Assembly: GCF_000684975.1 (NCBI RefSeq)
Contig: NZ_BAXZ01000018.1
Coordinates: 4,924-36,923, forward strand
Direction of reading: 5' to 3'
DNA: 32,000 nucleotides
From: Paraburkholderia acidipaludis NBRC 101816
GTDB taxonomy: Bacteria; Pseudomonadota; Gammaproteobacteria; Burkholderiales; Burkholderiaceae
Each line of letters starts with the position of its first letter. Position 1 is the stretch's first letter. The translations under genes and the position numbers were made by a program. This document shows, in pieces, positions 3,195 to 23,837 of this stretch. The notes beneath the pieces are model-generated. The model was not told the origin of the DNA. It made no database searches and saw only the letters and a list, made by a program, of their open reading frames with translations.

Positions 3195-3634
3195 GTGCTT
3201 CGGAGCTAAAGTGTGAATGCGGCTAGGTTATCTTTCGATATTCACAGAATTGCTCCCCTGAATCGCACATTCACAAGTTTGATACGCGGCCGGTCTGGCC
3301 CATTCGACGCTCAGAGATTTGCTCCAAAGCAACGTGCTTCGGAGCAAAATTGTGCATGCGGCCAATTTATCTAAGAGTGAAGTTCGGGGATTGGCTGGCC
3401 AATGGTTTGCCTCGGAAACCTGCGATATGCAAAAGTTTGCTCCGCGAATTGCACACTCAGGTTTGGTAGTCAGCCGTACTGGCCCGTTTTTCGACATTCA
3501 CGGATTTGCTCCGAAGTACTCCATGGCCACCTATCTATGCTCCGGACGCACTACAACCGCATACGATTGCTCCGGCTATGAACTAGCGGGCGAAAACCGA
3601 ATGCCCATGCTCCGGCGCACTAAATCGCGGATAC
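3195..3634. repeat. Degenerate tandem/inverted repeat array built on a TGCTCC(G) core
   Basis: Exact TGCTCC occurs at 3251, 3320, 3438, 3507, 3538, 3568 and 3608 on the plus strand and at 3341-3346 on the minus strand. gtgcttcggagc occurs at 3195-3206 and 3334-3345, each followed by a conserved tail of about 27 nt. An 82-nt unit at 3249-3330 is repeated at 3436-3517. An imperfect 25-nt palindrome lies at 3321-3345. Confidence 0.75.
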
Positions 3635-4018: not shown

Positions 4019-5458
4019 ATGGCGAACAACGAACCTGGACCGGATCTGTCGTCCGATGACGGCAATAGCGACTTTCATGGGCAGGCCGCGCCGGAGAGCG
4101 TTGGCCGCGCCGTCGCGGACGCGTACCACACCAAACTTGACCTAAGCCTCGGCCGGGACGATATCGCCTACGTCGCGGGCATTTTTCATTTTCAGAAGAA
4201 GTCTGACGATTCCTACATTGACGAGGCAGTCCTTCGCGCCATCTACGAACCCGTAAACGAAATGGTGAACGGCGACCCGGACACCATTCAACAGCGTTGC
4301 ACCAACGCGCTTTCCCGCCTGAAGTCGCAGAGCATCCTGATTCGTGCCGACGCGGGTGGGGTCTGGGAGGAGGGCCGATACACTCTCTCGACGCTGGGCA
4401 ATGCGATCGGCCGATATATCAGCGACGAGAGCAGTTTGACGGTGCAAAGTCTCACGATCCTGCTCTCGCGCATCCGCGCGGAGCTTGCCGATGTAATCGC
4501 TACGGCCCGCTCTGCGAACGAAACTACGGACTGGGACGCCACGGTGGTCGCCCTGCTCCGATATCTGGTCACGGATCTACTTGAGGCTCTGGAGCGCCGG
4601 GCGCGTGGGTTGGATATCTCGAACCAGCAACTTCGGCGACAAATCACCAGCCTCTTTCATCAAAAATGGGGAGATGCGGCGGACATCTGTAAGTCGATGC
4701 TGAATAGCGTCATGAGCACGCTGTTTGAGTTGTATTCCGTCCTCACCGAGCAAGTTGAGTCGCTGACCCGGCTGCTCGATGACATCGCGGAGTTTTCAGA
4801 CCGCGATGCGGCCATTCTGCCTTTGGTAGAGAGCCTGCGCACACAGTTGCACCGTTTGCACAACTGGAGTATGCAGCGTCACACCGAATGGGCAAATTAC
4901 CACGGGATGGTGATGACTTTCATCCGGACTCACGTGCAAATGGACCCGGACAACCGCATGCGTGGCCGAATCCGGGACCACATTCAGCGCTTCCCCGAGA
5001 CGCCCTACTATCTTGTCGTGCTGGACCCCGTCCCGTTCCTGCACATGCGGGAAGTCGAGCGGCCCGACAAGAACCACCAGGTTGATGTGCCCGCCTTCGC
5101 CTTCGCTAACCGGAAAGTGGCAGACGTCGGCGTGCCGCGGGAAAGCGACATCGGGCAGGTGATCAAGCGGATGCTGGCTCGTCTGGAACAAGATGGAGAG
5201 ATCGACCTCGCCACGTCGATTGTCACTGATGGCGCTCACCTGAGCGACCTCGACTGGTATGTGCTGATTTCACGAGTAACACCGCTCTTGCTGGATCGCG
5301 GTATCCCCCCGGCCGCGTTGAGTGCACGCCGTTGGGCGGCGCTGAGCGCCCGACTGGAAACGCAGTCGCTCAAACTGCGTTCGCGCTCGATGCCTGCCGA
5401 CGAAACTCAGCCAAATCCAGAAGCGCAGCATCCTGCCGAGGGAGAAAACGATGTCTAG
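4019..5458 (+). CDS. jetA: MukF-like kleisin subunit (JetA/MksF class)
   Basis: 479 aa with a GGGAGA Shine-Dalgarno 6 nt upstream. Colinear with E. coli MukF as I recall it. YTLSTLGNAIGRYI matches YRLTPLGIGITDYY, FHQKWGDAADICKSML matches LNKDWRAAISSCELLL, and FIRTHVQMDPDNRMRGRIRDHIQRF matches [26 protein letters not shown]. The stop overlaps the next gene by 8 nt. Confidence 0.85.
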   Translation: MANNEPGPDLSSDDGNSDFHGQAAPESVGRAVADAYHTKLDLSLGRDDIAYVAGIFHFQKKSDDSYIDEAVLRAIYEPVNEMVNGDPDTIQQRCTNALSRLKSQSILIRADAGGVWEEGRYTLSTLGNAIGRYISDESSLTVQSLTILLSRIRAELADVIATARSANETTDWDATVVALLRYLVTDLLEALERRARGLDISNQQLRRQITSLFHQKWGDAADICKSMLNSVMSTLFELYSVLTEQVESLTRLLDDIAEFSDRDAAILPLVESLRTQLHRLHNWSMQRHTEWANYHGMVMTFIRTHVQMDPDNRMRGRIRDHIQRFPETPYYLVVLDPVPFLHMREVERPDKNHQVDVPAFAFANRKVADVGVPRESDIGQVIKRMLARLEQDGEIDLATSIVTDGAHLSDLDWYVLISRVTPLLLDRGIPPAALSARRWAALSARLETQSLKLRSRSMPADETQPNPEAQHPAEGENDV

Positions 5459-6119
5459 TGAACTGATGGAGGTCATCGCCGATGACCGCTATCCACAAGC
5501 CGATCTGTTGCTTCGCCAGGGGAAGCATCTCGGTACTGATGGTGACGCCAGCCTGTACGACTTCATTCACTCTAACCAGGACTGCCTGGCCTCTTACTAC
5601 CGCCGTTATGGGGTACTGCTGCAGAGCGGTCCCGAAGGCTATTTCTACCTCCTGCCCGTCAGCGCGGACAGGGCCCCGCTAGGCCGGCGCCATCTTGGCC
5701 TGCTCGACATGCTCGTTGGCCAGACGCTTGCCCTAATGATGCTTGACCCGCAATGGCTGGAGACCAATCGGCGCATCCCGGACCTCCAGGTTCTGGCCTC
5801 GCTGGAGCAATTGTTGGGCACGAAGCAACTCCTGCGCTACGCGGGCCGCAAGCGCGGTCAGAATGATGAGTTAGACGCGCAGAAATTACGCGAATCGCTG
5901 GCGGGCACCATGAAGACCCTCGAGCGATTGGGATTCATCAAGCGGGAGGGCCGGGGCGAGAGTGCTGTCGTGATCCCCCTCTCCCCCGTCATGCGCTTCG
6001 CCGACCCGGTCCGTACGAGCACCGACGTGACCGAGGACGCGATGCGCCGGCTGATCCAGGAAGGACAAATTGATCTCTTGCCAGATAACCGCAAGAACGC
6101 CGCGCCTGTCGACGACTGA
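5451..6119 (+). CDS. jetB: MukE-like subunit (JetB/MksE class)
   Basis: 222 aa. Matches to E. coli MukE include LRQGKHLG vs LRSGRHIG, YYRRYGVLLQSGPEGYFYLLP vs [28 protein letters not shown] vs LDMMVGK and AMRRLIQEGQ vs AQRRLIRDGE. Confidence 0.88.
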   Translation: MSSELMEVIADDRYPQADLLLRQGKHLGTDGDASLYDFIHSNQDCLASYYRRYGVLLQSGPEGYFYLLPVSADRAPLGRRHLGLLDMLVGQTLALMMLDPQWLETNRRIPDLQVLASLEQLLGTKQLLRYAGRKRGQNDELDAQKLRESLAGTMKTLERLGFIKREGRGESAVVIPLSPVMRFADPVRTSTDVTEDAMRRLIQEGQIDLLPDNRKNAAPVDD

Positions 6120-6178
6120 CGAGCCAGCCAGGCGCCGCGAGCATAGGCCTTGATCAACCCAGTACCGAAGGATTTTCC

Positions 6179-9100
6179 ATGCCCAAGCTGACACGTGCGT
6201 GCCACCGTCACCTGTTGCTCGCCAACTGGCGGAGCGTCCCTTTTCAGGTGTGCGAGACGGATCGGTTTGTCACCGGTTTGGAAGGCGACAACGGGGCGGG
6301 CAAGACGACCACTATGGCTGGCTTCCTGACGGCGATCATCCCGAATCTGCGCCTGCTCTCTTTTCCGAGCATTGCCTCAGACGGCGCAGCGGACTCCGAA
6401 GAGGCGGGCCTTTGGGGACGCCTGGGCGAAGATGGCAGCACGTCATACACAATGATCGAGTGGATCACGCCCCGCGGCGAGAGTGTCTGGGCCGGTGTGG
6501 CCCTCGCTCGTGGCACCCGCCCGAAAATCGAGGTACTGCACTACTTCACAATTCAGTTCCTGGGCGAAATTGACCCTTATGCCACGTTCCCCATGAAGTT
6601 TGGGGGCAAGTGGATCGTCCCTCCCACCTATAAGCACATGCGGGAGCATCTCACGATGCAAGGTGCAAAGGTAACGACCTACCCAAGGCTGCAGAATTAC
6701 ATGCGCGCCCTCTACGACTACGGCATCACGCCGAAGCCAATGCAAGAACAAGCAGAGCAGGCTCGCTTCTACCGCCTTCTCGCCAGCTCCATGGCAGGAA
6801 CCTCACTAGGAGCCATTGCGAAATCGGAGCTGCGCAATTTCCTTTTGAATGCGGATCCGGACGTCGGTAACGTGGTGAGCAAGATGCGAACCTGCCTGGG
6901 TGACACCCAGCGCGCCAGGCGGGAGATTGAAAACACCCAAGAGAAGCATGACGAAATCCACGGGCTCTTCGACGCCGCATGGAAAATGGTCTCCTTTGCC
7001 TATTTCGGCGCGCTAGCTCGATTCGAGCAGGTGAACGAAGCATGGCTGCATCAACTCAAAGTCGCCCGCGACCTGCGGAAACAACACCAGAACTTGCTCA
7101 CTGAGCGGGGAGTCCTTATCGAGCGTCTCGCCAGGCTCGCCTCACAGGAAGCTGCGGATGACACTACAGCGCAAGCACGCAAAACATCTCTGGATATCGC
7201 CAGGCAGGCATTTTCTCTACGTCAGCAGTTGGCTGATGCATTGCAAAACCTCCAGGCAACGGCACGCAACTTCGCCGCCGAGTCCGCTGCGAGGGTAAAG
7301 GCCGAATCGGCCGAGACCAAGGCTAATGTCGAAGACCGCGCCGCACGCGACGAACACACGAATATCTCAACCCAAATGGGGAGCCTGAACCACGCCATCG
7401 AGGCACTAATCGGCCGTGTGATTCGCCTGCGCAAGGCCCGTGAAGTTTTGGCGAAAGCCCGCCGCGTGATTGATCAGAACGTCAACGAGCACAATGCGCA
7501 AGAACTTAGGGCGGGGTTCGATGAGCGCTATCAGGACCTGACCGAACGCGCGCTGCGCACGGAAGCCAACCTGGCTGACAGCAAGGCGCGAAAAGAGGCC
7601 TTTGACCGGCTCTTTCGGCAATTGCGGACCATCTGCAATGAGGATGGGCTGACCGTGGTGGATTTCGAAGCCCATGATCGCGCAGTGGAACTCGATCTGA
7701 AGTTGCGCGACATGAATGGATTGGCCGCCCGGGTGCCGGAACTTGACTCCGCACGCGTCAACATGAATCGGTTGAGCCAGCGGCAAGAGCAAGTACGCGC
7801 AACGGCAAGCCGCTTGAATATTCAGAACTCCCGACACCTGTTGGATGAAGGCGCCCTATTGCGAGAGAAAATCGCAGATCTGGACGCAGAACGCGACAGA
7901 AAACTTGACCGCAAGCAGATTTTGCTGAGCCAGGAAACCGACGCATCGAGAAAAGTGAATGAGTTGGTAGACGCGGATAAGGCGTATCGTCAACGTCGGG
8001 AACTTCAGCAGCAGCTGTGCGCACTGGACAAGGACTTTGAGACCATCACTAACCGTGACTATTTGGAGGAAGCCCGAGATAACGTCAATGTCCGGCTTGT
8101 CGCCGCTTTGGACAACCGACGCGAAAAGGAGAATTGGCTTCGGGCGCTGACGGAAATTATCCGTAGGTTACGCAGCGGCTTCGGCACAATCGACCAACGT
8201 GTCGGATCAGTCGCCGGGCATGTTGAAGGCTACTTACTTTCTGGCGAATTTGAAGATCTGGACGTCGAGGAAGCGGCACGCACCCAAGCGCGCCTTGGTC
8301 CCTGGATGGAGGCGATTGTCGTTGATGACCCTGAGTCCGCGGCCAAGATGGCCATCGACCTGCCGGACCGGCCCGAAAATTTACATTTCGTGCGCAGCGA
8401 CTTCGCTGCTGGACAACGTATTGGAGTCACGCTGGGCGACAGTGAAATTGTGAGCGAAGGGGTCGATGGAGCCGGCGTCCGCCTGTCGCGCCATCCTGAT
8501 CAGCCGGTTCTTGGTCGGAAAGCGCGGGAGGCTGATATTGAGCGACGAGAGAAAGAAAAGGCCGAAGTCGAGAGCGAGTTGGCGAGCCTGCGCGGCTATA
8601 GCGGGGTGTTAAAGCGAATCCTGGAACTGACTGAGCAACTTCTCGCGCTCGGACAATCGGTATGGCACGACGACCCCAGCCCTGCTCTGGACGAAGCGCG
8701 GGCGCGATGGTTCGGCATTCGCACAGGTCTGGCCGACCTGGAGACCGCCCTGACTAAAATTAGTGCCGACTTGGGAAAGTTGCGCGAGCGGCAGAAAGCG
8801 CTTGATGAAATCGCCGCCCACAGCGCGTTGCTCGATCAACCCACCTATCGGGACGAGGTACTGCGTGTCGAGGATGACTTGCGGACTTGCCGTACCGCAG
8901 CGGACTGGGTAAAGCGCTTCGAAAGCCCGGTGCGCGAAATTCTGGAAGGACTACCGATCCTGAGTCGATTGCCAGAGCCGGCAGAAATTGAACGAGAAGC
9001 GGCGGCCCTGGCCAATATCATCCTGGAGCGCAATGCTGCCGCGGCCTCGAGCGATGCACTTGGGGCTCTTCTCACGGTCGCTGGCGATCTTGCGTTCACT

Positions 9101-10609
9101 GAGGACGAAAAGGTTCATGACGAAAAATCCAGCGTGATGAAATCGTTGGAAGTCAAACTTGCTGCTGTCACGCGACGTCTTGAGACGGCATCCGCAGGAT
9201 TGACGAGCGCGAGGTCAGCCGTCGACGCGGCTCGCGCGAAAGAGAACGACTGCAACGTGGCACACCAACGGGCTCAAGATGTCCACAGGACGCTTAGCGC
9301 AAGCCTTGAATCGACCGGCTTGCAAGGTACAAACGAAGAGGTCATAGCCGCAGAGGCAACCTACCAGGAAGCACAAGCCGCCCTGAGCAAGACACAATCA
9401 GAGAAGGCGACGACCAACGAGAGGAAGGTCACGGTCGAAACTGACATTGGGCATTCTGAATCTGTCGTTAAGGGCGCCAACGATGAGGTAAAACAACGCT
9501 ACCAGAACATTCGCGCAGAACGAGCCGTTCGCCGTGAAATTCACGCCGCTGTCGCAGAGCACAAACTCGGCGGAAAGATCGACACGGAAATTAACGGGCA
9601 GGAAGTTCTGCAAGGCCGGCGGATGCCAACGCGGTCGCTATTCAGCGAGGCCGACAGGAATCAAACCCTCCTGTTCGAACGTCTTCGCGCGCAGCCTCAA
9701 GTACAGCAGCAATTGCAAGAACTGGTCGTTGACGATTCCGAAGAACGGCGTGTTATTCAGGCCATCCAGGGCTGGGGTTGCATCCTTTCCCATATTGAGA
9801 GCCGTATCCCGCGCAACATCGCATCAAGCGACGATCCGCGCATCGCCTTGAAGCAAATGCGGGAGAAGCTGGCCGAACTGCACCGGACTCTTGCCGATCT
9901 GGAAACGGAAATGCGAGCTAGTTCGAGCGGTCTCGGCGCCGCGATCACGTCTCGAACCCTCAGCGTCGGCCATTTAATAAACAAGCTAAATTCGCAACTC
10001 GAAAATGTTTCATTCGGCTCGATACGGGGTGTCAACATAAAGAAAGAACAGTCGGATGAGATGGCAAACATGCTCCTCGCCCTGAAGAATGGCGGCGATC
10101 GGTCATTGTTCGAAAGTGATGCCCCTCTGGACGAAACGCTGGCGAAAATCTACCAGCACGTCAACGGCGGTACGATCAAAGGCGCCGAACTGCTCGACTA
10201 CCGCAACTATGTCATCCTCAACGTCAAGGTTCGCCGGCTGAACGGCACGTGGGATTCGACCGCGGGGCTTTCAACTGGAGAATCGATCGGCGTAGGCGCT
10301 GCCATCCTCATCATGATCCTCCGGACGTGGAGCGAAGACCTGCGTCGAATCAATGGGGCAGGTGCTGGTTACTGTATGCAACAGATCCTGCTCGACGAAG
10401 CAAATCGCCTGGACCACAGGGCGCTCGACACTTTAACCGAGTTCTGCCAGGCCATGGATGTGCAGGCACTCGTTGCGGCGCCGGGGCTGGAAGAGCCTCG
10501 CAACGGCACCGTCTACAGCCTCGTGCGCGAAATCTACAACGAGCGCGAAATCGTCACTTATCAAGGACGGAGGTTCGGGGCATGGACTGGGCAAGCGACG
10601 ACCGTCTGA
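6179..10609 (+). CDS. jetC: MukB-like SMC ATPase (JetC/MksB class), 1476 aa
   Basis: Walker A [27 protein letters not shown] (MukB has [27 protein letters not shown]). FYRLLASS. Hinge [14 protein letters not shown]. C-motif LSTGESIG. Walker B [18 protein letters not shown]. The long heptad-rich middle is consistent with a coiled coil. AAGGA Shine-Dalgarno upstream. Confidence 0.9.
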   Translation: [1476 protein letters not shown]

Positions 10610-11565
10610 GGGTCGCGGCCATCCGCCTTCTGCTAACGGGGCGTATTGTTCGATCCAGGTCCAATGCGGACTTCGTGGCCCAACTTGAAGACGTCGGGGT
10701 CGTCAGTACGACCCCGCGACGAGGCGAACTCGTGCTTGTTCCGGACCGCCTTACCTACTACAAGACCTTCCTGATCTCCAGATGGCCCGACTATCGCGAG
10801 ATCGCAGCGAAGATCCAGTCCAGAGGTCTTCCGATCGACGTAGCGACGTTGCGGGATCTTCGGCGCGACCATCTCGCGCCGCCGGCCGGGTTCCCTCAAC
10901 TGAACAGGAGGACTTTGGCGGCGTATGCTGGAACCCACTCGAAGTCGCGCGGAGCCGTGCCAGACGTTTCCGCTGCGATAACGACAGATGACACGATTCG
11001 GGCGCGTGTGAATGAAGGTCTCCGGCTACGAGGTATGGATGGCATGGAATACGACCTGTCGGCCCTGCAACGCAGCCTGACGGAAATAGCGTTCCCAGAT
11101 CGCGGGTTATCGGAAAGCTGGACGTTCTGTGGCACCCTGCCCCGACTTCTGCTTACTGTCGAGAATGTCGGATCTTTCGTGGACATCAAAAAGCCCGACG
11201 ACTGCCTGATTGTTCACAGCCCGGGCTGGAATCTTCCCAATGTCAGGCGGATACGGGCACGGCTGCCGGCGAGTGTGCGCTGGCGGCACTTTGGCGACCT
11301 CGATCCCAACGGGATCAAAATTGGCCTCGTGCTCACCACAGACTCAGATGCGGGCAATGATGCAAAAGTCTGGATACCCACCTCCGCTGCAGCCCTTCTG
11401 AGATCCCACGCTCTTTGTTTGGATCGGGAATGGAATGAAGACAACATCCCCGAACCAATGCGTAATCATCCGGCGCTGTCATGGTTGATCGAGCACAGCA
11501 AGTGGCTTGAGCAAGAGCCAATAGTAGTACTTCCGGAGTTCATTGACGAGTTAGGTCGACTATGA
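10582..11565 (+). CDS. jetD: JetD/MksG-like Toprim-domain protein (putative nuclease subunit)
   Basis: ATG at 10582 is preceded by GGACGGAGG and overlaps the jetC end by 28 nt. Toprim-like acidic motifs LLLTVENVGSF and WRHFGDLDPNGIKI sit in the C-terminal third. The ORF-track start at 10249 is rejected because it lies inside jetC and its translation is Arg-rich. Confidence 0.75.
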   Translation: MDWASDDRLRVAAIRLLLTGRIVRSRSNADFVAQLEDVGVVSTTPRRGELVLVPDRLTYYKTFLISRWPDYREIAAKIQSRGLPIDVATLRDLRRDHLAPPAGFPQLNRRTLAAYAGTHSKSRGAVPDVSAAITTDDTIRARVNEGLRLRGMDGMEYDLSALQRSLTEIAFPDRGLSESWTFCGTLPRLLLTVENVGSFVDIKKPDDCLIVHSPGWNLPNVRRIRARLPASVRWRHFGDLDPNGIKIGLVLTTDSDAGNDAKVWIPTSAAALLRSHALCLDREWNEDNIPEPMRNHPALSWLIEHSKWLEQEPIVVLPEFIDELGRL

Positions 11566-12073: not shown

Positions 12074-13135
12074 TCATGGTCCCGTCGTGTCGGCCACTGC
12101 CTGCCAGGGGCCGGCGTACAGGACGCCATTACGTTCAACCAGTTGACGGCGCATCGAGATGAGCCGGCCGCAGGCATTACACCTCGCCTGCGGGATGCCC
12201 GTATCGAACCCGATCTGGCGCTCGCCGCACCTCACGCATGGCGTGTCGGCCGCTGGGCGCACGCAGGCACGGATACGCGCGGCGAGCTGCCCTGACGGAT
12301 CGAGCTGCATGCAGCGCGCACGGAATTCATCGACAAGCCGCGCCGTAATGGCCGGATCCGTATCGATCATCTCCGCGAGCTGGAGGAGCGGCAGTGGCAG
12401 GCCCAGACAACGGATGAGCTCACGCTGTCGCGCGGCACCGCGGTTACGGGTGAAGGGTGTGCCGGTACGGCGATTGAACTGGGTACCGCAGGCCGTGCAA
12501 AGAAACCGCGGAAAGCCGCTGACGCGCCCCTTGCGCCGGACATTCCGGTTGCCGCAGATGGGGCAGACGGGCAGCGGATCGGCCCGGGGCGAATGGATGG
12601 CATCAAAATCGTGCGTCAGCGTCGCCGACAGCGTCGTGTCTTCTGCGTCAAAACCCGCTTCGGGTACAACAGACTGCACCACCTCCAGGCCACCGCCCAG
12701 CCGGATCAGACGCGCGCAATGACCGTCAGGATCCAGTTCCTGCAGCCAGCGTCGCACCAGCCGGACGGTTTCGCGCACGGTATGCTTCATCACGCCGAGT
12801 TCCCGCGCTGCCTGTGAGCAGCTAAGCGGTTGCGGCAGCATTGCGACCAGTTCGTTGACCTGCAGCCGGAACGGCCGGTGCGAGAGTGGCGTTCCCGTCA
12901 GACGGCTGAAGTAGTGACCACATCGCTCGCATTGGTACGTCGGCAGCGGGCCGGTGAGCAGCCGCGCGTAGCCCTTCTTCGCGATCCGTATGCCGTCGCA
13001 CCTGGGGCAACGCGGGACGGGGTCGGCATTCGGCGACAGGAGCGTGGCAATATGCGTCTGCAGGAAGCGGACAAGTGCCTGGCCGTCGTCCTGGCCTGTA
13101 CCGGGCGCAGGCGCGACGGCTCGCAGATCGCTCAT
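12074..13135 (-). CDS. Triple zinc-ribbon / HTH repeat protein (IS1 InsA-like; possibly DUF746 family), last gene of the T6SS operon
   Basis: 353 aa. Three CxxC...CxxC modules: CPRCDG..CERCG, CPICGN..CTACG and CVRCGE..CNACG. The first two are each followed by an HTH-like segment and a repeated LDPxG..RIR motif. The start overlaps the ompA-like stop by 4 nt. Confidence 0.7.
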   Translation of the reverse strand: MSDLRAVAPAPGTGQDDGQALVRFLQTHIATLLSPNADPVPRCPRCDGIRIAKKGYARLLTGPLPTYQCERCGHYFSRLTGTPLSHRPFRLQVNELVAMLPQPLSCSQAARELGVMKHTVRETVRLVRRWLQELDPDGHCARLIRLGGGLEVVQSVVPEAGFDAEDTTLSATLTHDFDAIHSPRADPLPVCPICGNRNVRRKGRVSGFPRFLCTACGTQFNRRTGTPFTRNRGAARQRELIRCLGLPLPLLQLAEMIDTDPAITARLVDEFRARCMQLDPSGQLAARIRACVRPAADTPCVRCGERQIGFDTGIPQARCNACGRLISMRRQLVERNGVLYAGPWQAVADTTGP

Positions 13136-13632
13136 CGGCCCATGATCCTGGCCTCGGACTCTCCGGTAATCACGATCTCGGTGCGCCGGTTCTTCGCCTG
13201 GCCTTCGGGCGTGTCGTTGCTCGCCACCGGCTGGTCATAAGCGAAGCCCTTCGTCGTGATCCGCGACGGGGGAATGCCGCGCTCATCGAGCGCATCAGCG
13301 ACGGTCGTGGCGCGTGCTTCGGATAACTGCATGTTGTACTCGTGCGTACCGACGTTATCCGTATGTCCCTCGACGATGACCGGCTTGTCGCTGCGTTTGA
13401 GCAGTACCACTGCGCGAGCCAGTGCAGGTGCAGCGTCTGCGCGCAGCGTGGACTGGTCGAAATCAAAGAGTACCTTTTCGGGCAGGCGCAACTGCACGCC
13501 GTCAGGGCCCTGTGTGACTTCGATACCCGTGGCCTGGTTCAGTGCAATTTCATGGTCGCGATCCAGTCCAGAGCACGCCGAAAGCAGTGCGAGCGCGCTG
13601 ATGCAGGTCCCCAGCGAAAGCAGTTTCTTCAA
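13132..13632 (-). CDS. OmpA-family peptidoglycan-binding lipoprotein (likely T6SS cell-wall anchor)
   Basis: Signal peptide plus lipobox MKKLLSLGTCISALALLSAC. OmpA C-terminal-like domain VIVEGHTDNVGTHEYNMQLSEARA...NRRTEIVI. Confidence 0.85.
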   Translation of the reverse strand: MKKLLSLGTCISALALLSACSGLDRDHEIALNQATGIEVTQGPDGVQLRLPEKVLFDFDQSTLRADAAPALARAVVLLKRSDKPVIVEGHTDNVGTHEYNMQLSEARATTVADALDERGIPPSRITTKGFAYDQPVASNDTPEGQAKNRRTEIVITGESEARIMGR

Positions 13633-13710
13633 ATTGTTCTCCTTCAGGAATGGGGCACGCGATAGGCGTACAGATCGCCATACCCCAAGGTTGCAGTAAG
13701 GGGGTACGGG

Positions 13711-14328
13711 TCAGCCCTGTTTGTGAGTTGTTGCCGACGACGCGGGACTGGCCGGTACGGCCTGCTGGGGCGCTTCGTGCTTGACCGGCTGCGAATCGGC
13801 ACCAACCAGAACCAGTTCGTTGCCGTTGACCTCGATCTTCACAGGGTCCGTTTTCTTCCACTGCTTCTTCGGAATCGCGAGCTTCCAGACCCGGTCCTGC
13901 ACCGGCTCACGGAAAAACGCCACCACCCCCACGACCTGGGCATCCGGGTTCATCGGCTCGGCAAGGCTCGCGCCCGCGTCAGGACGCAGCACAACGTCCT
14001 TCGTGGCCACCAGGTCCGCCTTGAGCAGGTTGAGGTCGTCAGACTGCAGCTGTGCATAAGTCAGTTGTGCGAAGGTCCTGGCATCCTTGAGCTGGTAGAA
14101 CCGGACCACCGTCGAAAGCGACTGTCCCTGCACATCCGCATTGATCGACGAGCGGCCCTTGAGGTCCACGTTCATGGTCTTGACCTGGGTCGTGAAGACC
14201 CACTTCGCGGCATCGACGGTGCTGTCACCCACCGCCTGACCGAGGCCGCAACCGGCCGTGGCCACGGCCGCCAGTATCGCGGCCGCGAGGCCGGCGTGGC
14301 GTGCCGCGCGTTTCCTGTTTGCGTTCAT
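13711..14328 (-). CDS. tssJ: Type VI secretion lipoprotein TssJ
   Basis: Lipobox AVATAGC. TssJ-like pattern INADVQGQSLSTVVRFYQLKD...VVGVVAFFREP. Positioned after tssG. Confidence 0.85.
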   Translation of the reverse strand: MNANRKRAARHAGLAAAILAAVATAGCGLGQAVGDSTVDAAKWVFTTQVKTMNVDLKGRSSINADVQGQSLSTVVRFYQLKDARTFAQLTYAQLQSDDLNLLKADLVATKDVVLRPDAGASLAEPMNPDAQVVGVVAFFREPVQDRVWKLAIPKKQWKKTDPVKIEVNGNELVLVGADSQPVKHEAPQQAVPASPASSATTHKQG

Positions 14329-14359
14329 TGGGATACTCCCCTGTTCCTTTTACTGTTCT

Positions 14360-15463
14360 TCATGTGCCCGTTCCCCCTGCTCCGTTCCAGCGGCCGAGCT
14401 GCACGCGCGTGACACGTTCCGACCCGCGTGCCGCCGAGCCGGGCAGGGTTTCGAGTTGTGCCGTAAAACCCAGGTTGGCCTCGCGCGGCTCCAGCTTTGG
14501 TTTTGGCATGAGATCGGCGCGCACATGCATCTCCAGATCCGCGTCGCTCTCGTAGCCCAGATAGAACCGCAGCAGCGCCATGATCTCGCGGTGGGCGGGC
14601 TGCCCCGGGACGAGCGACAGCACCGTTTCGCGCAGCGCCGGCGTGATCACGATCCGGACCACGTTCGCCCGGTCGTAGAAGCCGCGGCCGAGCAGGCACT
14701 GCTCGCCGAGCGCGGCCGGCTCGAAATCGTTGACTTCGCGCCACACCGGGTGGAATTCCTCGACCGTGATCGAGGCGTCCGGGACGGCGTGCCGGAGCAC
14801 GCCGGCCAGCCCTTCGGCCGTGCGCGTTCTCTGCATCGCGAGCCCGAGCATCGACAGCAGCCGGCGTTTGTCGGCCACCGCCGCGAGCCGCTGACGCGCG
14901 CTGATGGACTCCCCTGCTTCGCTGCCTGCGGAAGCAGGGACGCGCGCGGAGGTGCTGAACCCGAATCCGGCAAAGCTGAGCAGGTAGCGCGACACCGGGT
15001 CCGTGCCGTCCCGCCGGAAGCCGACGGGATACCGGTACTTGCGCGCGACGCGGTAGTACTGCGTGATGATGCGGTGATGGAAGAGGTCGAGGAACGCCGC
15101 CAGGGACTCGGCCCCGTCGCGGTTCTGCGCGACCTCGTCGACGAAGTACGCGGGCATGCGCGCATCGACGCCATAGAACCCGAGAAACGTCGTGACCACC
15201 GATGGTGGCACCGCCGGATTGTCGAGGTCATACCGGACCGCGTCGATCTCCCGGCCCGGAAAACCCAGCTGCGCGCGCGAGCGGAACCGCACCGGTTCTG
15301 CGGCGGGCGAATCTGTGGTGCCGAGCGGTGGCATGTCGGGTGCCGCCAGTTCGAGCAGTTCGCAAAATCGGATGAAATTCATCCGCGGCGCCTGATCGAG
15401 CAGCGCGGGCATCAGCGGCGCAGCGTTGGCAGGTGCGGCCGCCGGCATTCCGGGTGCGTTCAA
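14360..15463 (-). CDS. tssG: Type VI secretion baseplate subunit TssG
   Basis: 367 aa. N-terminal MNFIRFCELLE-type motif. 4-nt overlap with the upstream tssF. Confidence 0.85.
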   Translation of the reverse strand: MNAPGMPAAAPANAAPLMPALLDQAPRMNFIRFCELLELAAPDMPPLGTTDSPAAEPVRFRSRAQLGFPGREIDAVRYDLDNPAVPPSVVTTFLGFYGVDARMPAYFVDEVAQNRDGAESLAAFLDLFHHRIITQYYRVARKYRYPVGFRRDGTDPVSRYLLSFAGFGFSTSARVPASAGSEAGESISARQRLAAVADKRRLLSMLGLAMQRTRTAEGLAGVLRHAVPDASITVEEFHPVWREVNDFEPAALGEQCLLGRGFYDRANVVRIVITPALRETVLSLVPGQPAHREIMALLRFYLGYESDADLEMHVRADLMPKPKLEPREANLGFTAQLETLPGSAARGSERVTRVQLGRWNGAGGTGT

Positions 15464-17271
15464 AACGGCGCCCCCTCACCCTTCGTCTCGGGCCATTCGA
15501 TACGCCGTCCCGTCGGTTGGGTCACGATCACGAGCTTCGTGTAAAGGTTCACCGTCGCATAGAGGCCGAGGAACCGGTTGAGCATGCTGCCAAAGAGCTC
15601 GAGATCGCCCTCGCCGGCAAAACGCCCGGCGTCGAGTGTCACCGTGATTTCCACGCCGCGCATCAGGCCACCCTTCACAAGCTTGCTGAGCGGCCGGTGG
15701 CGCACGTCGGTGATCGCCTCGATGCGCCTGCGGTTCAGCTCGCCCTCCGTCCAGTCATAGAGCGCGAGCGAGCCACGCAGAATTTCCGCGTCGAGCAGGG
15801 AGAGGTAGTTCGGCGACAGGTGGGAAAGCACACGCCACTGGTACCGCTCCCGGGTGGGGGGATAGACCGGGAGGGTAGGCGCCGTGAGGTTGCGTACCGC
15901 GCCGATGTTGGTGAAGCCGCCGCGCATGCGCGTAATCCCCGCTTCACGCAGGGCCTTGCGCGGCAGCATGCCGTTGGTGCCCGTCACCGACAGTGTGAGG
16001 ATTTCCCTCGGCAGCGTGGTCGCCTGGTCCCACGCGTGGCCGCCGAGCACGAGCCACGTATCGAACCGCCCGGACGGGCCACGTCGCATGTGGGTGTGGT
16101 AATACCGCTCGGGCATGTCGTGGCGCAGCATGCCACCGCGATGCCTGAATGCAGCAAAAGGTACATACTCGAAGCGGCGGCCACGCTCGAAATACTCCAC
16201 ACCATCAACCGAATAGATGTCGATGAGCGAACCGGCCTCGGCCCGCGCGCGCACGCGGTATTCCGTCTCGTGCTGCGTGACCGTTACCGGATCGGCTCCC
16301 ACCGTGAAAAGGTTGATGACCGGCGTGCAGTAGAGGCGAATATTCTCGGCAGTAAAGCGCATGTCGTCCGGATACGGTCGCTCGAGCACGACCTCGACGT
16401 CCACGGACGTGGCCGACGGGGGAAGCGCCTGGATATCGAGTCCGAGCAGGTCGACGAACATGAACTTCTCGGGGAACGTGAAATACTCGAGCAGCAGCTG
16501 GTAGCCGCCAAACGCATTATCGGCCTTGGGCCAGAGGCGTTCTTCGGCGGCAAAGCCGGCGGGCGCGAGACGCAGTCCTGACATCGCGACCGGCGCACCT
16601 GGCCGGTCCTCGGGCCAGCCGGGCAGGCGCACCTGCATCGCCACCGGCTTTGCCGTGAGCGCGGCGTAGAGGGACAGCGCGACAGGCCGGTCTGCGTTCA
16701 GGTACAGCCTCAGGCGCGGCACCTGCAGGCGATCACGCCCGGCCTGGGCCTGGATGTCCAGATGCAGACGGATAACCGAGCGCCCATCCTCGCGCGCATA
16801 GACGCCCGCTTCGGTAAGCGCCAGCGGATACATGTCGACTTCCTGCGTCGTGCGGTACACGCACTCGATCGTGGCATCGTCCGGGCCAGAACCGGTACCG
16901 ACCGGATCGGAGGTGGCTTCCAGTCCGGCTTCGAGTGTTTCGTGCTTCTGCAGCGCGCCGTGCTCGGGGATGAGTTCGAGGATCGCGAGCGACGGGATCA
17001 TGCGCAGGTAGTGCGGCCACAGCATGCTTACGAGCCCTTCCGTCAGCTCGGGCAGCTCGTCGTCGAGCTTGTGGCGCAGGCGCCCCATCAGGAAGGCAAA
17101 GCCCTCGAAGAGGCGTTCGATATGCGGGTCGCGCTCGCCCACACGGTCGAGGTCCAGCTCGCGTGCGCGATCGGGGAACGCGCGAGCGAATTCTTTCCCA
17201 CCTTCGCGCAGGTAGCGCATTTCCGCCTCGAAGTAGCGCAGGATCTCGTTGTCGCGGGTAGATTCGGTCAT
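15460..17271 (-). CDS. tssF: Type VI secretion baseplate subunit TssF
   Basis: 603 aa. N-terminus ILRYFEAEMRYLREGGKEFA is typical of the ImpG/VasA family. Confidence 0.9.
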   Translation of the reverse strand: MTESTRDNEILRYFEAEMRYLREGGKEFARAFPDRARELDLDRVGERDPHIERLFEGFAFLMGRLRHKLDDELPELTEGLVSMLWPHYLRMIPSLAILELIPEHGALQKHETLEAGLEATSDPVGTGSGPDDATIECVYRTTQEVDMYPLALTEAGVYAREDGRSVIRLHLDIQAQAGRDRLQVPRLRLYLNADRPVALSLYAALTAKPVAMQVRLPGWPEDRPGAPVAMSGLRLAPAGFAAEERLWPKADNAFGGYQLLLEYFTFPEKFMFVDLLGLDIQALPPSATSVDVEVVLERPYPDDMRFTAENIRLYCTPVINLFTVGADPVTVTQHETEYRVRARAEAGSLIDIYSVDGVEYFERGRRFEYVPFAAFRHRGGMLRHDMPERYYHTHMRRGPSGRFDTWLVLGGHAWDQATTLPREILTLSVTGTNGMLPRKALREAGITRMRGGFTNIGAVRNLTAPTLPVYPPTRERYQWRVLSHLSPNYLSLLDAEILRGSLALYDWTEGELNRRRIEAITDVRHRPLSKLVKGGLMRGVEITVTLDAGRFAGEGDLELFGSMLNRFLGLYATVNLYTKLVIVTQPTGRRIEWPETKGEGAPF

Positions 17272-17389
17272 GATCGGCAGGTATCAGTGGTTGATGGTTC
17301 CGGATTCCAGACCGCGATCAGGAAATCGCGCGCGCCGCACGGAATTTCCTGGTCAAGACGCGCCTGGTCACGCTGACGGACCCGATGCT

Positions 17390-20300
17390 TCATTGAGGAA
17401 CAACGCCTGCGGGAAGCGCGACGGTTGAGTGCTTCGCCGCCGCGATGGCTGCCTTGGGCAGCGGCGGCGGCCCTGAGGGCGCGGGCTGCCTTGCGGCGGC
17501 GAAACTGCTGCGATCCACGAAGATGCGCGAGGGCAGCACAAAGCCCCGCAGTGCGAGCAGCTCCATCGGCCCTTGCCCCACATCCGTGTGGATCAGATAG
17601 CGCAACGGATGCGTCATGTCCGGGGGGGCAGGCGCGAGCGGTTCACGCGCCACCTGCGCGGCGAGATCGGTGAGCCCATCCACTTTCGTCACGCCAGACT
17701 TCGGATCGGCGTTTTCCGGCTTCGCCTGCCACGTCAGCTGATACGTCGCACTGTCCATTGGCTCGACCTTTGCACGCTCGAGCAGACGCACGAGCGCCCA
17801 GCGGCCCGGGAATTCAAAGCCCTTGTTCGTACCCGCCGTGTCCGTCTGCCATTCGAGTCGCGTACCGGCCTTCTGCGGTTCGCTCGATGGCCATGTCATC
17901 GTGCTCCAGGATTCCACCTGGTTGTAGTAATGCAGCGTCTGCCCGTCGAGCGTGAGCAGCGTGTCGGTGATGCCCGGTGTCGGCACGGGTTTGAGCCCGA
18001 ATACGAACTGCGGCTCGCCTTGCGCGAGCATGTGCCCCGCGATCTGTTGAAGGGTATTGATGGCCTTCAGGAACGCCGGATCGAATGCGCGTGCGGTGCT
18101 GGCCGACCCGCTGCCGCCGCCACCGGAGGATGGCACCCACTGGTCGCCCTGCAGCTGCAACGCTCCGGCGAGCTGCGTGGAGAGGAATGTGTCGATCAAG
18201 CCACCCTGCGGGCGCAGGAAGCGCGCGAGTTCCGGCAGCGACGCATCGTTGGCGGTGCTGGCAAACGGATAGCGCCCTGCAAACGAACGGTTCCACGCGG
18301 CGACGATCGTCTCGCGCCATGCGTCGTTCAGGCTCGCTTCCGCGGGTGCAAGCACCGTGCGGGTCGCCTGCGTGACCGGCTCGACGAAGAGCGAATTGCC
18401 CATGCCGGCCCACTGCTCGCCCAGGCTGGCCGCGATGAGTTGCGCATAGCCGAGCGTATCGGAGAGGTCCGAGCCCTTGCCCTGATAGAGCGCCTGCGCG
18501 ACCTGCCGTGCCTGGTCGTCGGAGTCGGGACTGTCGCTGATCTGCTGCAGTTTCAGGCGCAGCGTCGTCACCCGTTCCGTGAAGCGCTCAAGGCTCAGGT
18601 CGCTGGCCGGGGACGTGGCGTTACCGTTACCCTGGGCAACAAGCTTGAGCACCGGACCGAAGGAGGCGCCCAGCGGGCCGGCGGGATCGGCCTGTGCCGG
18701 CTGCGGGGTGTCGTCCTTCTTGCCGAAGAAGTTCTGGGCCTTCGTAACCAGCGCGTCGGAAAGCGTTGCCTGCTGCGCGCCGGCGCCGCCCTGGTAAGCA
18801 AGCGACTTCATCAGCGCAATGAGCGGAGACTGGCGTGCATCGGCGATGAGCTTCAGTTGCCCGACGGCGGCCGGCAGCGTGGGAGCGGCCGCACACCGGA
18901 TGCTGTTCATGAAGTCCTGCCAGTGCTCGGTGTAATCGGAGAAGTAGTGGGCACGCAGTGCTGTACGCAGCTCGTCGGGTGTCATGGCCGTGCCCGCCTG
19001 CGAACTGCCAGCGTTGCCGAGTACCCAGTTGCCTTCGACGCCATTGTGTTTGGCGGCGTCGTCGATTGCGGCTTCGATGGAGCCCTCCCAGGCCTGACGC
19101 GTAAAGACGCCCGGAACCGTCGCCGACGTCGAGAAAAGTCCGCGCGTGTCCGTGCCCGCAGTCACTGAGGCAAGCGTCTGGTCGGGGTACTTGTGGCCGA
19201 CCGAGTCGAGAATGCCCTGATAGATCGTGTCCTCGGAGTTCCTGACGCCGATGATCGCAAGCAGCGTCTGGCGCGCGTTGCCCACGAGATCCTCGCGCGG
19301 CTGGATGCGCCAGTCGGGATGCGTGGGAAAGTGCTGCGCCCAGAAACCCAGCAGCTGCGCGGACAGGTCGAGTTTTTCTCCGGGGCGCAGACCGGTATCC
19401 AGATTCCAGTGCTGCCCGAGCTGGGGCGTCATGAAGGCGGGATCGGCACGCTGCGGATCGGCCATCATGAGGTAGGTCTTGAGCGCCTGCTGGCCGTCCT
19501 GCGCGACCTGGCTGCTCTGCGTGTCGACCTGGGCCGTCGACATCTGACCGAGATCGACGAGCTGGCCTTCGATGTCCTGCTGGACGGGGGCGACGAGCAA
19601 CGGCTTTGCGGCGCGCGCGTAGGGCTTCCACAGGGCATCGAGTATGGCCCGGTCGTGGTTCAGCCCGAAACGGGTCAGCAGCGGCGTATGTTCCTGCACG
19701 CGAGCCTCATGCAGCCCGATGCGCTGCTGGAGACCGAGCAATGCGCGCAGGCGGCCCGGGGTATCGCCCGCACGGTTAAGCGCCTGCAGCGACTCGTTCG
19801 TGAGCATGACCTCGTGCGCGTTGTTCATGCCCGAGGCGAGCATGCCCACGCTCCAGATGCCGATGAGGACCAGGGCAACCGTCGAGGCAATCGTGACGGG
19901 ATTGGACCAGGTACGGCGGCCGGGCGTGTGCCTCGAGGCGTCAGCGAGATAGCGCCACAGCGGTAGACGGCTGCTGCACGAAGCGCCCGACGAGCTCGAT
20001 GCGGTTGCACCGGCAACGACCAGAGGAGCGAAGAAGGCGCCGGCTACCGGCAACGGGCGACGCTGCCAGTCGGTCAGGCCCGCGATCCAGCGCGCGAGTG
20101 GCGCACTGCGGACGTCGAGCCGCGTGGACAGATCCGATGCGTAAGCGTCGTCGCCGTTCGTCGCCAGCTGACGCACGCTGCGGTCGGCGAGCTGGTCACG
20201 CAGCCCGAGCAGCGCCGTTTCGATGGCGCTCACGTTGAGCGGGCGCGTGAATTCGCAGCCCGTCACCGGCGTGTCGAACCGATGAACAGCATCGGCGCCC

Positions 20301-22140: not shown

Positions 22141-22166
22141 GGGTCAAATGTGGTTCACGAATCACT

Positions 22167-22343
22167 TTACGGCTGACGCGGAGCCGTTCCCAAACCCGTC
22201 GGCTTTAGTCTGTCGTCGGACTTCACCCAACCCCTTGCGCCAGCGCCATTTTTTTGACTGAAATGGACAAGGGAAACATAACCATCGAACTCAGGGTGCG
22301 AATCGACCTCCCCGTTCGGCAGGACAAATATGTCAGACATCGT
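22167..22343 (-). CDS. Small hypothetical protein (58 aa)
   Basis: The ATG at 22343 is preceded by GAGGGAG with 5-nt spacing. The ORF ends 26 nt upstream of the 385-aa gene. No recognisable motif. Confidence 0.4.
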   Translation of the reverse strand, partial: TMSDIFVLPNGEVDSHPEFDGYVSLVHFSQKNGAGARGWVKSDDRLKPTGLGTAPRQP

Positions 22344-23026: not shown

Positions 23027-23096
23027 GACGATTTCAACGGACAAATAAGGTGAAAATTGATTTCGATAACGCTTTCATCCCATTTTTCAATAAATG

Positions 23097-23618: not shown

Positions 23619-23634
23619 TATCTTTTCTGGGTAA

Positions 23635-23835: not shown

Positions 23836-23837
23836 GC

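What the first reader, a model, noticed from the sequence alone, without database searches (positions are those of the whole stretch)
4019..11565. MukFEB-type condensin operon wired to a JetD/MksG Toprim protein: a Wadjet-class system that is unusually close to true MukBEF
Four co-directional genes are packed with 8-nt and 28-nt overlaps and one 59-nt gap. Compared by eye with E. coli MukF/MukE/MukB as I remember them, the first three products are colinear along their whole length, not only at the P-loop. In the SMC head, [42 protein letters not shown] matches [42 protein letters not shown], with roughly half the positions identical. FYRLLASS matches FYRLIEAS. In the hinge, GPWMEAIVVDDPES matches GPSRHAIVVPDLSQ. 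In the C-terminal head, LLDYRNYVILNVKV..LSTGESIGVGAAILIMILRTWSED..QILLDEANRLD matches [49 protein letters not shown]. The SMC is 1476 aa; E. coli MukB is 1486 aa. The MukE-like and MukF-like products show similar blocks. The fourth gene carries Toprim-like motifs, as in JetD. MukBEF proper is a chromosome-organising complex of a subset of gamma-proteobacteria and has no nuclease partner. The characterised JetC/MksB proteins are, as far as I recall, much more remote from MukB and several hundred residues shorter. A MukB-sized, MukB-like SMC coupled to JetD, on an island in a high-GC beta-proteobacterial-looking genome, could be an under-described Wadjet lineage. It could also be an evolutionary intermediate between chromosomal MukBEF and plasmid-restricting Wadjet.
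Basis: partly seen in the sequence, partly recalled or inferred. Interest (0 to 1): 0.75.

Follow-up and report, generated by a model that had tools for sequence, protein, structure and literature searches.

The report
MukBEF-like condensin operon with nuclease
This Paraburkholderia locus is an intact four-gene operon whose first three proteins closely resemble the E. coli chromosome-folding complex MukBEF and whose fourth is a DNA-cutting enzyme, placing it in a little-studied defence lineage that is the nearest relative of MukBEF.

Summary
Window 4019-11565 holds four co-directional genes with 8-nt and 28-nt overlaps and a 59-nt gap.

- **Genes 1-3:** these are full-length, colinear homologues of MukF, MukE and MukB. 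The MukB score is 679 bits against NCBI's cut-off of 699. PADLOC's JetA/B/C models do not match any of them.
- **Gene 4:** this 327-aa protein has a confidently predicted JetD/MksG/topoisomerase VI-A fold and keeps the invariant Toprim acidic residues.
- **Distribution:** the four-gene arrangement recurs in about 50 of 58 informative loci from many phyla.
- **Phylogeny:** in trees, true MukB nests among or beside these nuclease-bearing systems. The window's own beta-proteobacterial subclade is not the closest one to MukB.
- **Prior work:** relatives are already listed as "FEBG" operons, sister to MukB, in the supplementary data of Bürmann et al. 2025. The idea that MukBEF descended from Wadjet is published. 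I found no paper in the library searched that names, types or tests this lineage.
- **Likely function:** SMC loop extrusion coupled to cleavage of small circular DNA. This is inferred from homology and has not been shown.
- **Side finding:** all sampled Aeromonas species keep a conserved, selected homologue of gene 4 a few kb downstream of their genuine mukFEB.

The parts
4019..5458 (+). Gene 1: MukF-like kleisin (479 aa)
   Evidence: Pfam gives MukF_M 5e-18, the KicB winged helix 3e-07 and a MukF_C match below its cut-off. NCBIfam MukF scores 188 bits against a cut-off of 407. It is 23% identical to E. coli MukF (E 2e-26). GGGAGA lies 6 nt before the ATG.
5451..6119 (+). Gene 2: MukE-like KITE subunit (222 aa); overlaps gene 1 by 8 nt
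   Evidence: Pfam MukE scores 108 bits and MksE 91 bits. NCBIfam MukE scores 110 bits against a cut-off of 250. It is 35% identical to E. coli MukE.
6179..10609 (+). Gene 3: MukB-like SMC ATPase (1476 aa)
   Evidence: NCBIfam MukB equivalog scores 678.9 bits against a cut-off of 699, matching residues 5-1465 to model positions 3-1466. The protein is colinear with E. coli MukB. In the PDB it matches only MukB chains (310 bits).
6284..6307 (+). Walker A motif GDNGAGKT (residues 36-43 of gene 3)
8120..8584 (+). MukB-type hinge (residues 648-802 of gene 3)
   Evidence: Pfam MukB_hinge scores 93 bits.
10268..10282 (+). ABC signature motif LSTGE (residues 1364-1368 of gene 3)
10385..10402 (+). Walker B motif ILLDEA, with D1406 and E1407 aligned to MukB E1407
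   Evidence: The E1407Q mutation abolishes MukBEF loading (PMC7617805).
10582..11565 (+). Gene 4: short JetD/MksG-type Toprim nuclease (327 aa); overlaps gene 3 by 28 nt
   Evidence: The AlphaFold2 model has pLDDT 93. Foldseek finds MksG 8b7f, topoisomerase VI-A 1d3y, JetD 7til and Spo11. A family profile hits the MksG Toprim domain at E 1e-5. The protein is 100% identical to the P. acidipaludis 'JetD domain-containing protein'.
11155..11172 (+). Toprim glutamate motif TVENVG (E194)
   Evidence: E194 is invariant in 47 homologues. It aligns with the glutamate of the IET motif in topoisomerase VI-A 1d3y, the position published as E197.
11287..11313 (+). Toprim DxD motif HFGDLDPNG (D239, D241)
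   Evidence: Both aspartates are invariant. They align with the DGD motif of topoisomerase VI-A, published as D249 and D251.
11503..11517 (+). Conserved acidic motif WLEQE (E310, E312)
   Evidence: The motif is invariant. It aligns with the MksG sequence IEQE.

Best explanation
The locus is an intact, horizontally acquired defence operon of the Wadjet/MksBEFG group. It belongs to an untyped 'Muk-type' branch.

**Components.**
- A MukF-like kleisin.
- A MukE-like KITE subunit.
- A MukB-sized SMC ATPase. Because it is colinear with MukB, it should have MukB-length coiled-coil arms.
- A compact JetD-type Toprim nuclease.

**Proposed mechanism.** The MukFEB-like core loads on DNA and extrudes loops using ATP. 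On a small circular molecule, extrusion runs to completion and the motors stall. The gene 4 dimer is then recruited or released from inhibition. It cuts the DNA with its metal-binding E194/D239/D241 site. The much larger chromosome is never fully extruded and is spared.

**Shown here.** Gene order and translational coupling; full-length homology to MukF, MukE and MukB; intact ATPase motifs; the JetD/topoisomerase VI-A fold with invariant acidic residues; near-obligate linkage of this nuclease type with this SMC type across phyla.

**Inferred from characterised type I and type II Wadjet.** Loop extrusion, recognition of circular DNA, nuclease activation, and the anti-plasmid phenotype.
For: - **Family assignments.** Searches give the Muk family matches. 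Searches show colinearity with E. coli MukB, MukF and MukE, with intact Walker A, signature and Walker B motifs.
- **Nuclease.** establish the fold and the catalytic residues.
- **Linkage.** A genome scan with the gene 4 family gave 80 loci. Of 58 with at least 6.6 kb upstream, 45 pass strict F-E-B coverage. Six more have the genes with lower tblastn coverage. Nineteen of 22 shorter loci have the MukB-like C-terminus directly upstream.
- **Accessory, defence-like behaviour.**
  - Seven loci are decayed by deletion.
  - Neighbours elsewhere include a BrxR/WYL regulator, and a SAVED-domain gene with an IS21 element.
  - Operon GC3 is 0.64-0.75, against 0.75-0.87 in flanking genes.
  - pN/pS against the C. 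yeoncheonensis copy is 0.29-0.46.
- **Mechanism of relatives.** Type I and type II Wadjet cleave circular DNA in an ATP- and SMC-dependent way (10.1101/2022.10.04.510915, PMC10586767, 10.1101/2025.03.10.642339).
Against: - No member of this branch has been tested experimentally.
- Gene 4 is about 40-110 residues shorter than the JetD/MksG-type proteins looked at here. Chains 8b7f and 7til span 368 and 374 residues; genes listed or fetched here encode about 413 and 444 aa. It matches them by sequence only in the Toprim domain.
- Gene 2 aligns with MukE from its first residue and has no N-terminal extension. An extension is where type I JetB carries the IFDR motif that contacts JetD. Recruitment of the nuclease may therefore work differently.
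- The core is so MukBEF-like that a chromosome-organising role, alone or in addition, cannot be excluded.
- The host's plasmid content and its other condensins could not be examined.
Confidence: 0.72

Rival explanations
1. It is chiefly a chromosome-organising condensin, a MukBEF/MksBEF-like back-up to Smc-ScpAB. Gene 4 then serves a housekeeping DNA-processing role, or is regulated so that it seldom acts, rather than restricting plasmids.
For: - The core is very close to MukBEF.
- The literature says nuclease-free MksBEF contributes to chromosome organisation in P. aeruginosa. It also suggests Wadjet may act on chromosomes too.
- In Aeromonas, a gene 4 homologue is conserved and under selection next to the genuine mukFEB.
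Against: - The distribution is patchy across distant phyla, with decayed copies.
- Some copies sit beside defence or mobile genes.
- The operon's composition is atypical for this genome.
- The nuclease site is strictly conserved.
- Every characterised SMC complex with a JetD subunit is a plasmid-restriction system.
Confidence: 0.15
2. It is an ordinary type I, II or III Wadjet locus that only looks MukBEF-like because all Wadjet SMCs are distant MukB relatives.
For: - Gene 4 gives weak PADLOC JetD1 hits of 15-25 bits.
- NCBI names it a JetD domain-containing protein.
Against: - Genes 1-3 give no PADLOC JetA/B/C hit. Other family members hit JetC models only as weakly as E. coli MukB itself does (53 versus 57 bits). 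A real type II JetC scores 1009 bits.
- The PDB sequence search finds MukB only.
- The outgroup Wadjet SMCs are 14-20% identical, against 23-34% for MukB and its relatives.
- In the published tree, relatives sit with MukB and apart from other Wadjet clades.
Confidence: 0.03
3. It is a decaying or silent relic: the ORFs are intact, but the system is no longer expressed or functional in this strain.
For: - About one locus in eight of this family is visibly degraded.
- The consensus scan of the 1.1-kb region upstream of gene 1 found no promoter-like site on the + strand.
Against: - All four ORFs are full length, with every catalytic motif present.
- A 98% identical MukB-like protein exists elsewhere.
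- pN is far below pS against the Cupriavidus copy.
- The promoter scan covers only sigma-70 consensus sites.
Confidence: 0.1

Closest known systems
[quoted passage not shown]
   Same: - The gene order is F-E-B.
- The proteins are of the same size and colinear: 1476 versus 1486 aa for the SMC, with 8% gaps.
- The MukB N-terminal head, the compact MukB-type hinge, the MukF middle domain and MukE all match their Pfam families.
- The Walker B glutamate falls at the same residue number, 1407.
   Different: - Identity is only 23-35%.
- All three proteins fall below NCBI's equivalog cut-offs: MukB narrowly, MukF and MukE widely.
- A fourth, translationally coupled nuclease gene is present.
- The host is a beta-proteobacterium and the operon looks acquired.
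- The SMC lies outside the true MukB clade (bootstrap 100 for that clade without it).
Type I Wadjet / JetABCD / MksBEFG (E. coli GF4-3, P. aeruginosa PA14, C. glutamicum)
   Same: - Four subunits: kleisin, KITE, SMC and Toprim nuclease.
- The nuclease has the CAP-plus-Toprim fold with the E...DxD site.
- The presumed logic is the same: extrusion-coupled cleavage of circular DNA.
   Different: - The SMC is about 300-370 residues longer.
- Its arms are presumably MukB-length. Published figures are about 580 Å for MukB and about 295 Å for type I JetC.
- There is no detectable match to JetA or JetB models.
- JetD is 327 aa, against 368 and 374 residues in the solved chains 8b7f and 7til.
- Gene 2 has no N-terminal extension of the kind that carries the JetB IFDR motif.
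FEBG operons listed beside MukB in Bürmann et al. 2025 (Sorangium cellulosum So ce56 CAN95856-59, P. aeruginosa NCMG1179, Massilia sp. PAMC28688, Sulfurifustis variabilis, Thiococcus pfennigii, Plasticicumulans lactativorans)
   Same: - The architecture and sizes agree: MksB 1445-1474 aa and MksG 315-340 aa, worked out from the table's coordinates.
- The So ce56 locus was recovered here as L071 using the gene 4 profile.
- These operons are the same family as the window's.
   Different: - The window's SMC is only about 25-27% identical to the family members outside its own subclade that I sampled, including the Sorangium-type loci. I did not retrieve the other listed SMCs.
- It belongs to a separate nine-member subclade with Cupriavidus, Duganella, Pseudoduganella and some Pseudomonas (bootstrap 98-100).
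- P. acidipaludis itself is not in that table.

Membership tests
Wadjet / MksBEFG group (broad sense) | An operon encoding a kleisin, a KITE subunit, an SMC ATPase and a JetD/MksG Toprim nuclease | tested here: met
   The genes are co-directional and overlapping.
Wadjet / MksBEFG group (broad sense) | Intact SMC ATPase motifs (Walker A, signature, Walker B D-E) | tested here: met
   GDNGAGKT at 36-43, LSTGE at 1364-1368, and ILLDEA with E1407.
Wadjet / MksBEFG group (broad sense) | Nuclease subunit with a Toprim fold and conserved metal-binding acidic residues, and no catalytic tyrosine mechanism required | tested here: met
   Fold matches to MksG, JetD and topoisomerase VI-A. E194, D239, D241, E310 and E312 are invariant in 47 sequences. 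The presence or absence of a tyrosine was not examined.
Wadjet / MksBEFG group (broad sense) | ATP-dependent restriction of circular plasmid DNA | not testable with these tools
   This requires transformation assays or in vitro cleavage assays.
Wadjet types I, II and III as modelled in PADLOC-DB v2.0.0 | JetA, JetB and JetC subunits match the type-specific profile models | tested here: not met
   Genes 1-3 give no hit at E <= 0.01. A type II JetC control scores 1009 bits. Only gene 4 gives weak JetD1 hits of up to 25 bits. DefenseFinder models were not available.
MukBEF proper | Subunits reach the NCBIfam equivalog cut-offs for MukB, MukF and MukE | tested here: not met
   MukB 678.9 against 699; MukF 188 against 407; MukE 110 against 250.
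MukBEF proper | The SMC falls inside the gamma-proteobacterial MukB clade | tested here: not met
   The MukB clade of 7 sequences has bootstrap 100 and excludes the window protein, which sits in its own clade of 9. These are neighbour-joining trees only.
MukBEF proper | No associated MksG/JetD nuclease, as stated in PMC7617805 | tested here: not met
   Gene 4 overlaps gene 3 by 28 nt. This feature is itself in doubt for Aeromonas.
MukBEF proper | It is the host's main condensin, replacing Smc-ScpAB, and co-occurs with MatP, SeqA and Dam | not testable with these tools
   Only 32 kb of the genome is available. From general knowledge, Burkholderiales carry Smc-ScpAB. This was not checked here.

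The most novel reading that the evidence does not exclude
True MukBEF arose from inside this nuclease-bearing Muk-type Wadjet radiation, and the loss of the nuclease is incomplete.

The lineage closest to MukB (Alteromonas-type) still has a JetD gene, either adjacent or 1.4 kb away. The whole genus Aeromonas keeps an intact JetD homologue under purifying selection, 4-8 kb downstream of its genuine mukFEB.

If that protein still works with MukBEF, a housekeeping condensin would double as a plasmid- or DNA-restriction machine. The window's operon would be a tractable stand-in for the ancestral state.
Probability: 0.25. Interest if true: 0.85.

Novelty: new variant of a known kind. Interest (0 to 1): 0.6.

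Why it matters
The origin of MukBEF is openly described as unresolved. The leading idea is that a Wadjet defence system was domesticated by losing its nuclease.

- **A testable comparison.** This lineage supplies the missing comparison partner. Its complexes have MukBEF's size and, by colinearity, its architecture, yet they still carry the nuclease. One could ask directly what distinguishes a chromosome organiser from a plasmid killer, and whether MukB-length arms change the plasmid size limit or the ability to bypass obstacles.
- **Missed by defence finders.** PADLOC's Wadjet models do not detect these systems.
- **Misannotated as housekeeping genes.** Genome pipelines sometimes label them as mukB and mukE with chromosome-segregation GO terms. 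Defence inventories and condensin surveys are therefore both skewed.

Tried and rejected
1. **An under-sampled tree.** My first tree had 56 SMCs, only one of them a true MukB. It grouped the window's subclade with E. coli MukB (bootstrap 79-84). With 175 sequences, including seven true MukBs, that grouping fell to 50 or below. I treat it as a sampling or long-branch artefact.
2. **A word-indexed search.** The homologue search with the full MukB-like protein returned only nine proteins. This is probably because coiled-coil words swamp the candidate list. The exhaustive representative search replaced it.
3. **Records not held.** GenBank plasmid accessions CU633751, CP044456, CP007513 and NC_010529 were not held. 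Two RefSeq versions worked and served as outgroups. Petrushenko et al. 2011 (PMC3179180) is not held.
4. **Island boundaries.** I found no tRNA, no flanking direct repeats and no Rfam match upstream. The case for horizontal acquisition rests only on composition and patchy distribution.
5. **Sequence search of gene 4 against the PDB.** It found nothing, even at E = 1. A family profile and the predicted fold were needed.
6. **Plasmid carriage.** The family is rare on plasmids: 2 of 72,556 records. One is an 880-kb replicon and the other a chromosome filed as a plasmid.
Full report
**1.

The window has ORFs at 4019-5458, 5451-6119 and 6179-10609 on the + strand. The fourth ORF is listed from a GTG at 10249. 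Its real start is the ATG at 10582, which lies 8 nt behind GGAGG. Forty-six homologues of 305-345 aa align from that start.

Similarity to E. coli K-12 MukFEB (fetched):
- Gene 3 aligns with MukB from residue 4 to about 1455, at 26% identity with 8% gaps (E 2e-88). All the quoted motif pairs appear in the alignment.
- Gene 1 against MukF gives 23% identity (E 2e-26).
- Gene 2 against MukE gives 35% identity (E 2e-28).

**2. Profile tests favour Muk over Jet**

- Pfam assigns MukF_M, KicB, MukE, MukB N-terminal and MukB_hinge.
- NCBI's MukB equivalog model scores 678.9 bits end to end, just under its 699-bit cut-off. MukF and MukE score well below theirs.
- PADLOC's JetA, JetB and JetC models give nothing for genes 1-3 at E <= 0.01. 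As a control, a type II JetC from a Bacillus plasmid scores 1009 bits. E. coli MukB and two other members of this family give only weak local C-terminal-head hits of 24-57 bits.
- A sequence search of the PDB with gene 3 returns only MukB chains, and no JetC or MksB.

**3. Gene 4 is a JetD-type nuclease**

By sequence it is barely recognisable. Pfam JetD_C gives 20.9 bits, under the cut-off. PADLOC JetD1 gives at most 25 bits. The PDB sequence search gives no hit.

The family evidence is much stronger.
- An alignment of 47 family members has E194, N195, D201, H236-F-G-D239, D241, E310 and E312 invariant.
- The family profile hits the Toprim domain of C. glutamicum MksG (8b7f, E 1e-5). It aligns E194, D239 and D241 with the metal ligands of topoisomerase VI-A. 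Those ligands are the residues published as E197, D249 and D251.
- The AlphaFold2 model has mean pLDDT 93.
- Foldseek's significant PDB matches are MksG, topoisomerase VI-A, P. aeruginosa JetD and Spo11.

The nuclease link therefore stands. At 327 aa the protein is shorter than the JetD/MksG-type proteins looked at here. The solved chains 8b7f and 7til span 368 and 374 residues. Genes listed or fetched here encode about 413 and 444 aa.

**4. The four-gene unit is a family, not a one-off**

The gene 4 protein is identical to a Paraburkholderia acidipaludis entry. Scanning one genome per species with the family's HFGDLDP motif gave 80 loci. They come from Myxococcota (many Sorangium), Planctomycetota, Gamma- and Betaproteobacteria, Acidobacteriota, Gemmatimonadota and Spirochaetes.
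- Of 58 loci with at least 6.6 kb upstream, 45 pass strict tests for F (about 435-475 aa), E (about 225-260 aa) and B (about 1472-1480 aa) in that order before G.
- Six more have the genes but lower tblastn coverage.
- Seven are visibly decayed, through internal deletions of the SMC gene or truncations.
- Nineteen of 22 shorter loci have the SMC C-terminus directly upstream.

The exhaustive search of 1.84 billion representatives found only 308 relatives of the SMC at E <= 1e-3, and 144 at 1e-30, true MukB included. The MukB-like world is therefore small and sharply bounded.

**5. Phylogenetic position**

Bürmann et al. 2025 (PMC7617805) built a tree of the Wadjet group and listed the operons. 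In their tree file, E. coli MukB and Endozoicomonas MukB (both FEB operons) are sister, with bootstrap 100, to a clade of FEBG operons. That clade holds Sorangium, P. aeruginosa NCMG1179, Massilia, Sulfurifustis, Thiococcus and Plasticicumulans. The So ce56 locus is my L071.

My own neighbour-joining trees used 175 SMCs on full-length and head-plus-hinge columns. They were rooted with a type II JetC, with an Acinetobacter BEFG SMC as the second outgroup. They show the following.
- A true MukB clade of 7 sequences has bootstrap 100.
- This clade joins two sequences of an Alteromonas-type lineage (bootstrap 89-95).
- Both sit inside a group of 23, with bootstrap 84-90 on full-length columns and only about 40 on head plus hinge.

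Genomic context for four of these near neighbours shows a JetD-type gene. It lies directly after B in P0093, P0131 and P0215, and 1.4 kb away in P0186. All carry the VEN/IEN, DLD and EQE motifs. A member of the true MukB clade (P0190) has none.

The window's SMC forms a separate clade of nine (bootstrap 98-100). Its partners come from Cupriavidus necator, Duganella, Pseudoduganella and Pseudomonas umsongensis/neuropathica. Its position relative to MukB is unresolved (bootstrap 50 or below). It is about as far from MukB (23% identity) as from the other FEBG members (24-28%).

"Unusually close to MukBEF" is thus a property of the whole branch. This locus is an ordinary member of one of its subclades.

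**6. Genomic setting**

- Upstream lie a DbpA helicase gene and a dihydroxyacetone kinase gene. Downstream are a DUF746 gene and a type VI secretion cluster.
- The operon's GC is 0.58-0.61 and its GC3 0.64-0.75. The neighbours have GC 0.64-0.69 and GC3 0.75-0.87. This fits acquisition by transfer.
- I found no tRNA, integrase or flanking repeats.
- Against the Cupriavidus yeoncheonensis copy, synonymous sites are saturated (pS about 0.75). pN is 0.22 for gene 4 and 0.35 for gene 3, which indicates purifying selection.

**7. How it most likely works**

By homology with characterised type I and type II Wadjet, the MukFEB-like core should load on DNA and extrude loops. It should recognise small circular DNA by extruding it completely. 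It should then activate the Toprim nuclease.

What I have shown is the parts list, the intact catalytic motifs, the fold, and the tight evolutionary coupling of this nuclease type to this SMC type. The activities themselves are inferred.

Two features may make the mechanism differ in detail.
- The SMC is colinear with MukB. It should therefore have arms about twice as long as those of type I JetC (published lengths about 580 Å versus about 295 Å).
- Gene 2 aligns with MukE from its first residue and has no N-terminal extension. That extension is where type I JetB carries the IFDR motif that contacts JetD.

**8. Known or new**

The hypothesis that MukBEF descends from a JetABCD-like ancestor is in print. 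The FEBG relatives appear in the supplementary table and tree of Bürmann et al. 2025.

I found no paper in the held library that names, types or tests this branch. The literature still speaks of three Wadjet types.

I rate it a new variant of a known kind. Its interest is moderate to high, because it makes the MukBEF-origin question experimentally approachable.

**9. Side finding**

A tblastn search of plasmid records hit an Aeromonas caviae chromosome that had been filed as a plasmid. Following this up gave four results.
- An intact 329-341-aa homologue of gene 4 lies 4.4-7.6 kb downstream of the genuine mukFEB, on the same strand, in A. caviae, A. veronii and A. hydrophila. MukB in these species is 50-60% identical to E. 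coli MukB.
- The best 120 relatives listed form a series at 48-96% identity. Every one that carries a source name is from an Aeromonas species.
- The catalytic motifs are invariant, and dN/dS is 0.16-0.25.
- In a tree of G proteins, the Aeromonas sequences group weakly (bootstrap 35) with the G proteins of the Alteromonas-type sister lineage of MukB.

This looks like a relic of an ancestral mukFEB-jetD operon, kept in a true MukBEF lineage. It needs proper phylogenetics and experiments.

Noticed in passing
L090:8653-9678 (A. caviae), L092 and L093:10001-11005 (A. veronii), L094:10001-10990 (A. hydrophila): Aeromonas species keep an intact JetD-type gene 4.4-7.6 kb downstream of their genuine mukFEB, on the same strand. 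It belongs to the same family as window gene 4 (hhalign probability 99.9). Homologues carry the names of many Aeromonas species. The Toprim residues are invariant and dN/dS is 0.16-0.25. This sits oddly with the statement that MukBEF lacks a nuclease, and it looks like a relic of a mukFEB-jetD operon. I found no paper on it.
   Followed up: partly
L084:4036-12843 and L088:2045-9420: The SMC lineage closest to true MukB includes an Alteromonas macleodii protein annotated as 'MukB'. It carries a divergent 296-299-aa JetD homologue. In one contig the gene lies directly after the SMC gene. In the other it is detached by 1.4 kb and three small genes. This suggests stepwise uncoupling of the nuclease.
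   Followed up: partly
L091:2527-9921 (Burkholderia pyrrocinia pBPJTT): NCBI's pipeline annotates a member of this nuclease-bearing family as 'chromosome partition protein MukE' and 'MukB' (gene mukB), with chromosome-segregation GO terms. The locus sits beside a SAVED-domain gene and an IS21 element. UniProt and JGI also label other members as MukB. This is an annotation hazard.
   Followed up: no
window 3195-3620: About 11 copies of a TGCTCCG(R)A-like motif lie on both strands within 425 bp of the 1.1-kb intergenic region upstream of gene 1. That is 11 of the window's 37 matches. The set includes 27-nt and 39-nt direct repeats and one inverted pair. There is no Rfam match. It could be an operator array or a degenerate repeat element. 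It remains unexplained.
   Followed up: partly
window 12074-30712: A type VI secretion cluster lies on the minus strand. It includes an OmpA-domain gene, tssJ, tssG, tssF, tssM and vgrG. A 965-aa putative effector is present. A low-GC stretch (0.42-0.47) at 23-26 kb holds three ORFs with no Pfam match, possibly an effector-immunity cargo.
   Followed up: no
L032, L058, L059, L010, L026, L035, L047: These are decayed copies of the family. In one, the SMC gene is reduced to residues 1-30 fused to 1341-1473. In two, a MukF-like N-terminal fragment is fused directly to the JetD gene. In four, including two from complete Sorangium genomes, the SMC gene is truncated and the F and E genes are absent.
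   Followed up: partly
L082:374-6880 (Acinetobacter indicus pB18-1): This BEFG-order operon of the Wadjet group, listed by Bürmann et al., also escapes PADLOC. Its SMC matches no JetC model; only that subunit was tested. Its nuclease gene is annotated only as DUF2399. It may be another untyped lineage.
   Followed up: no
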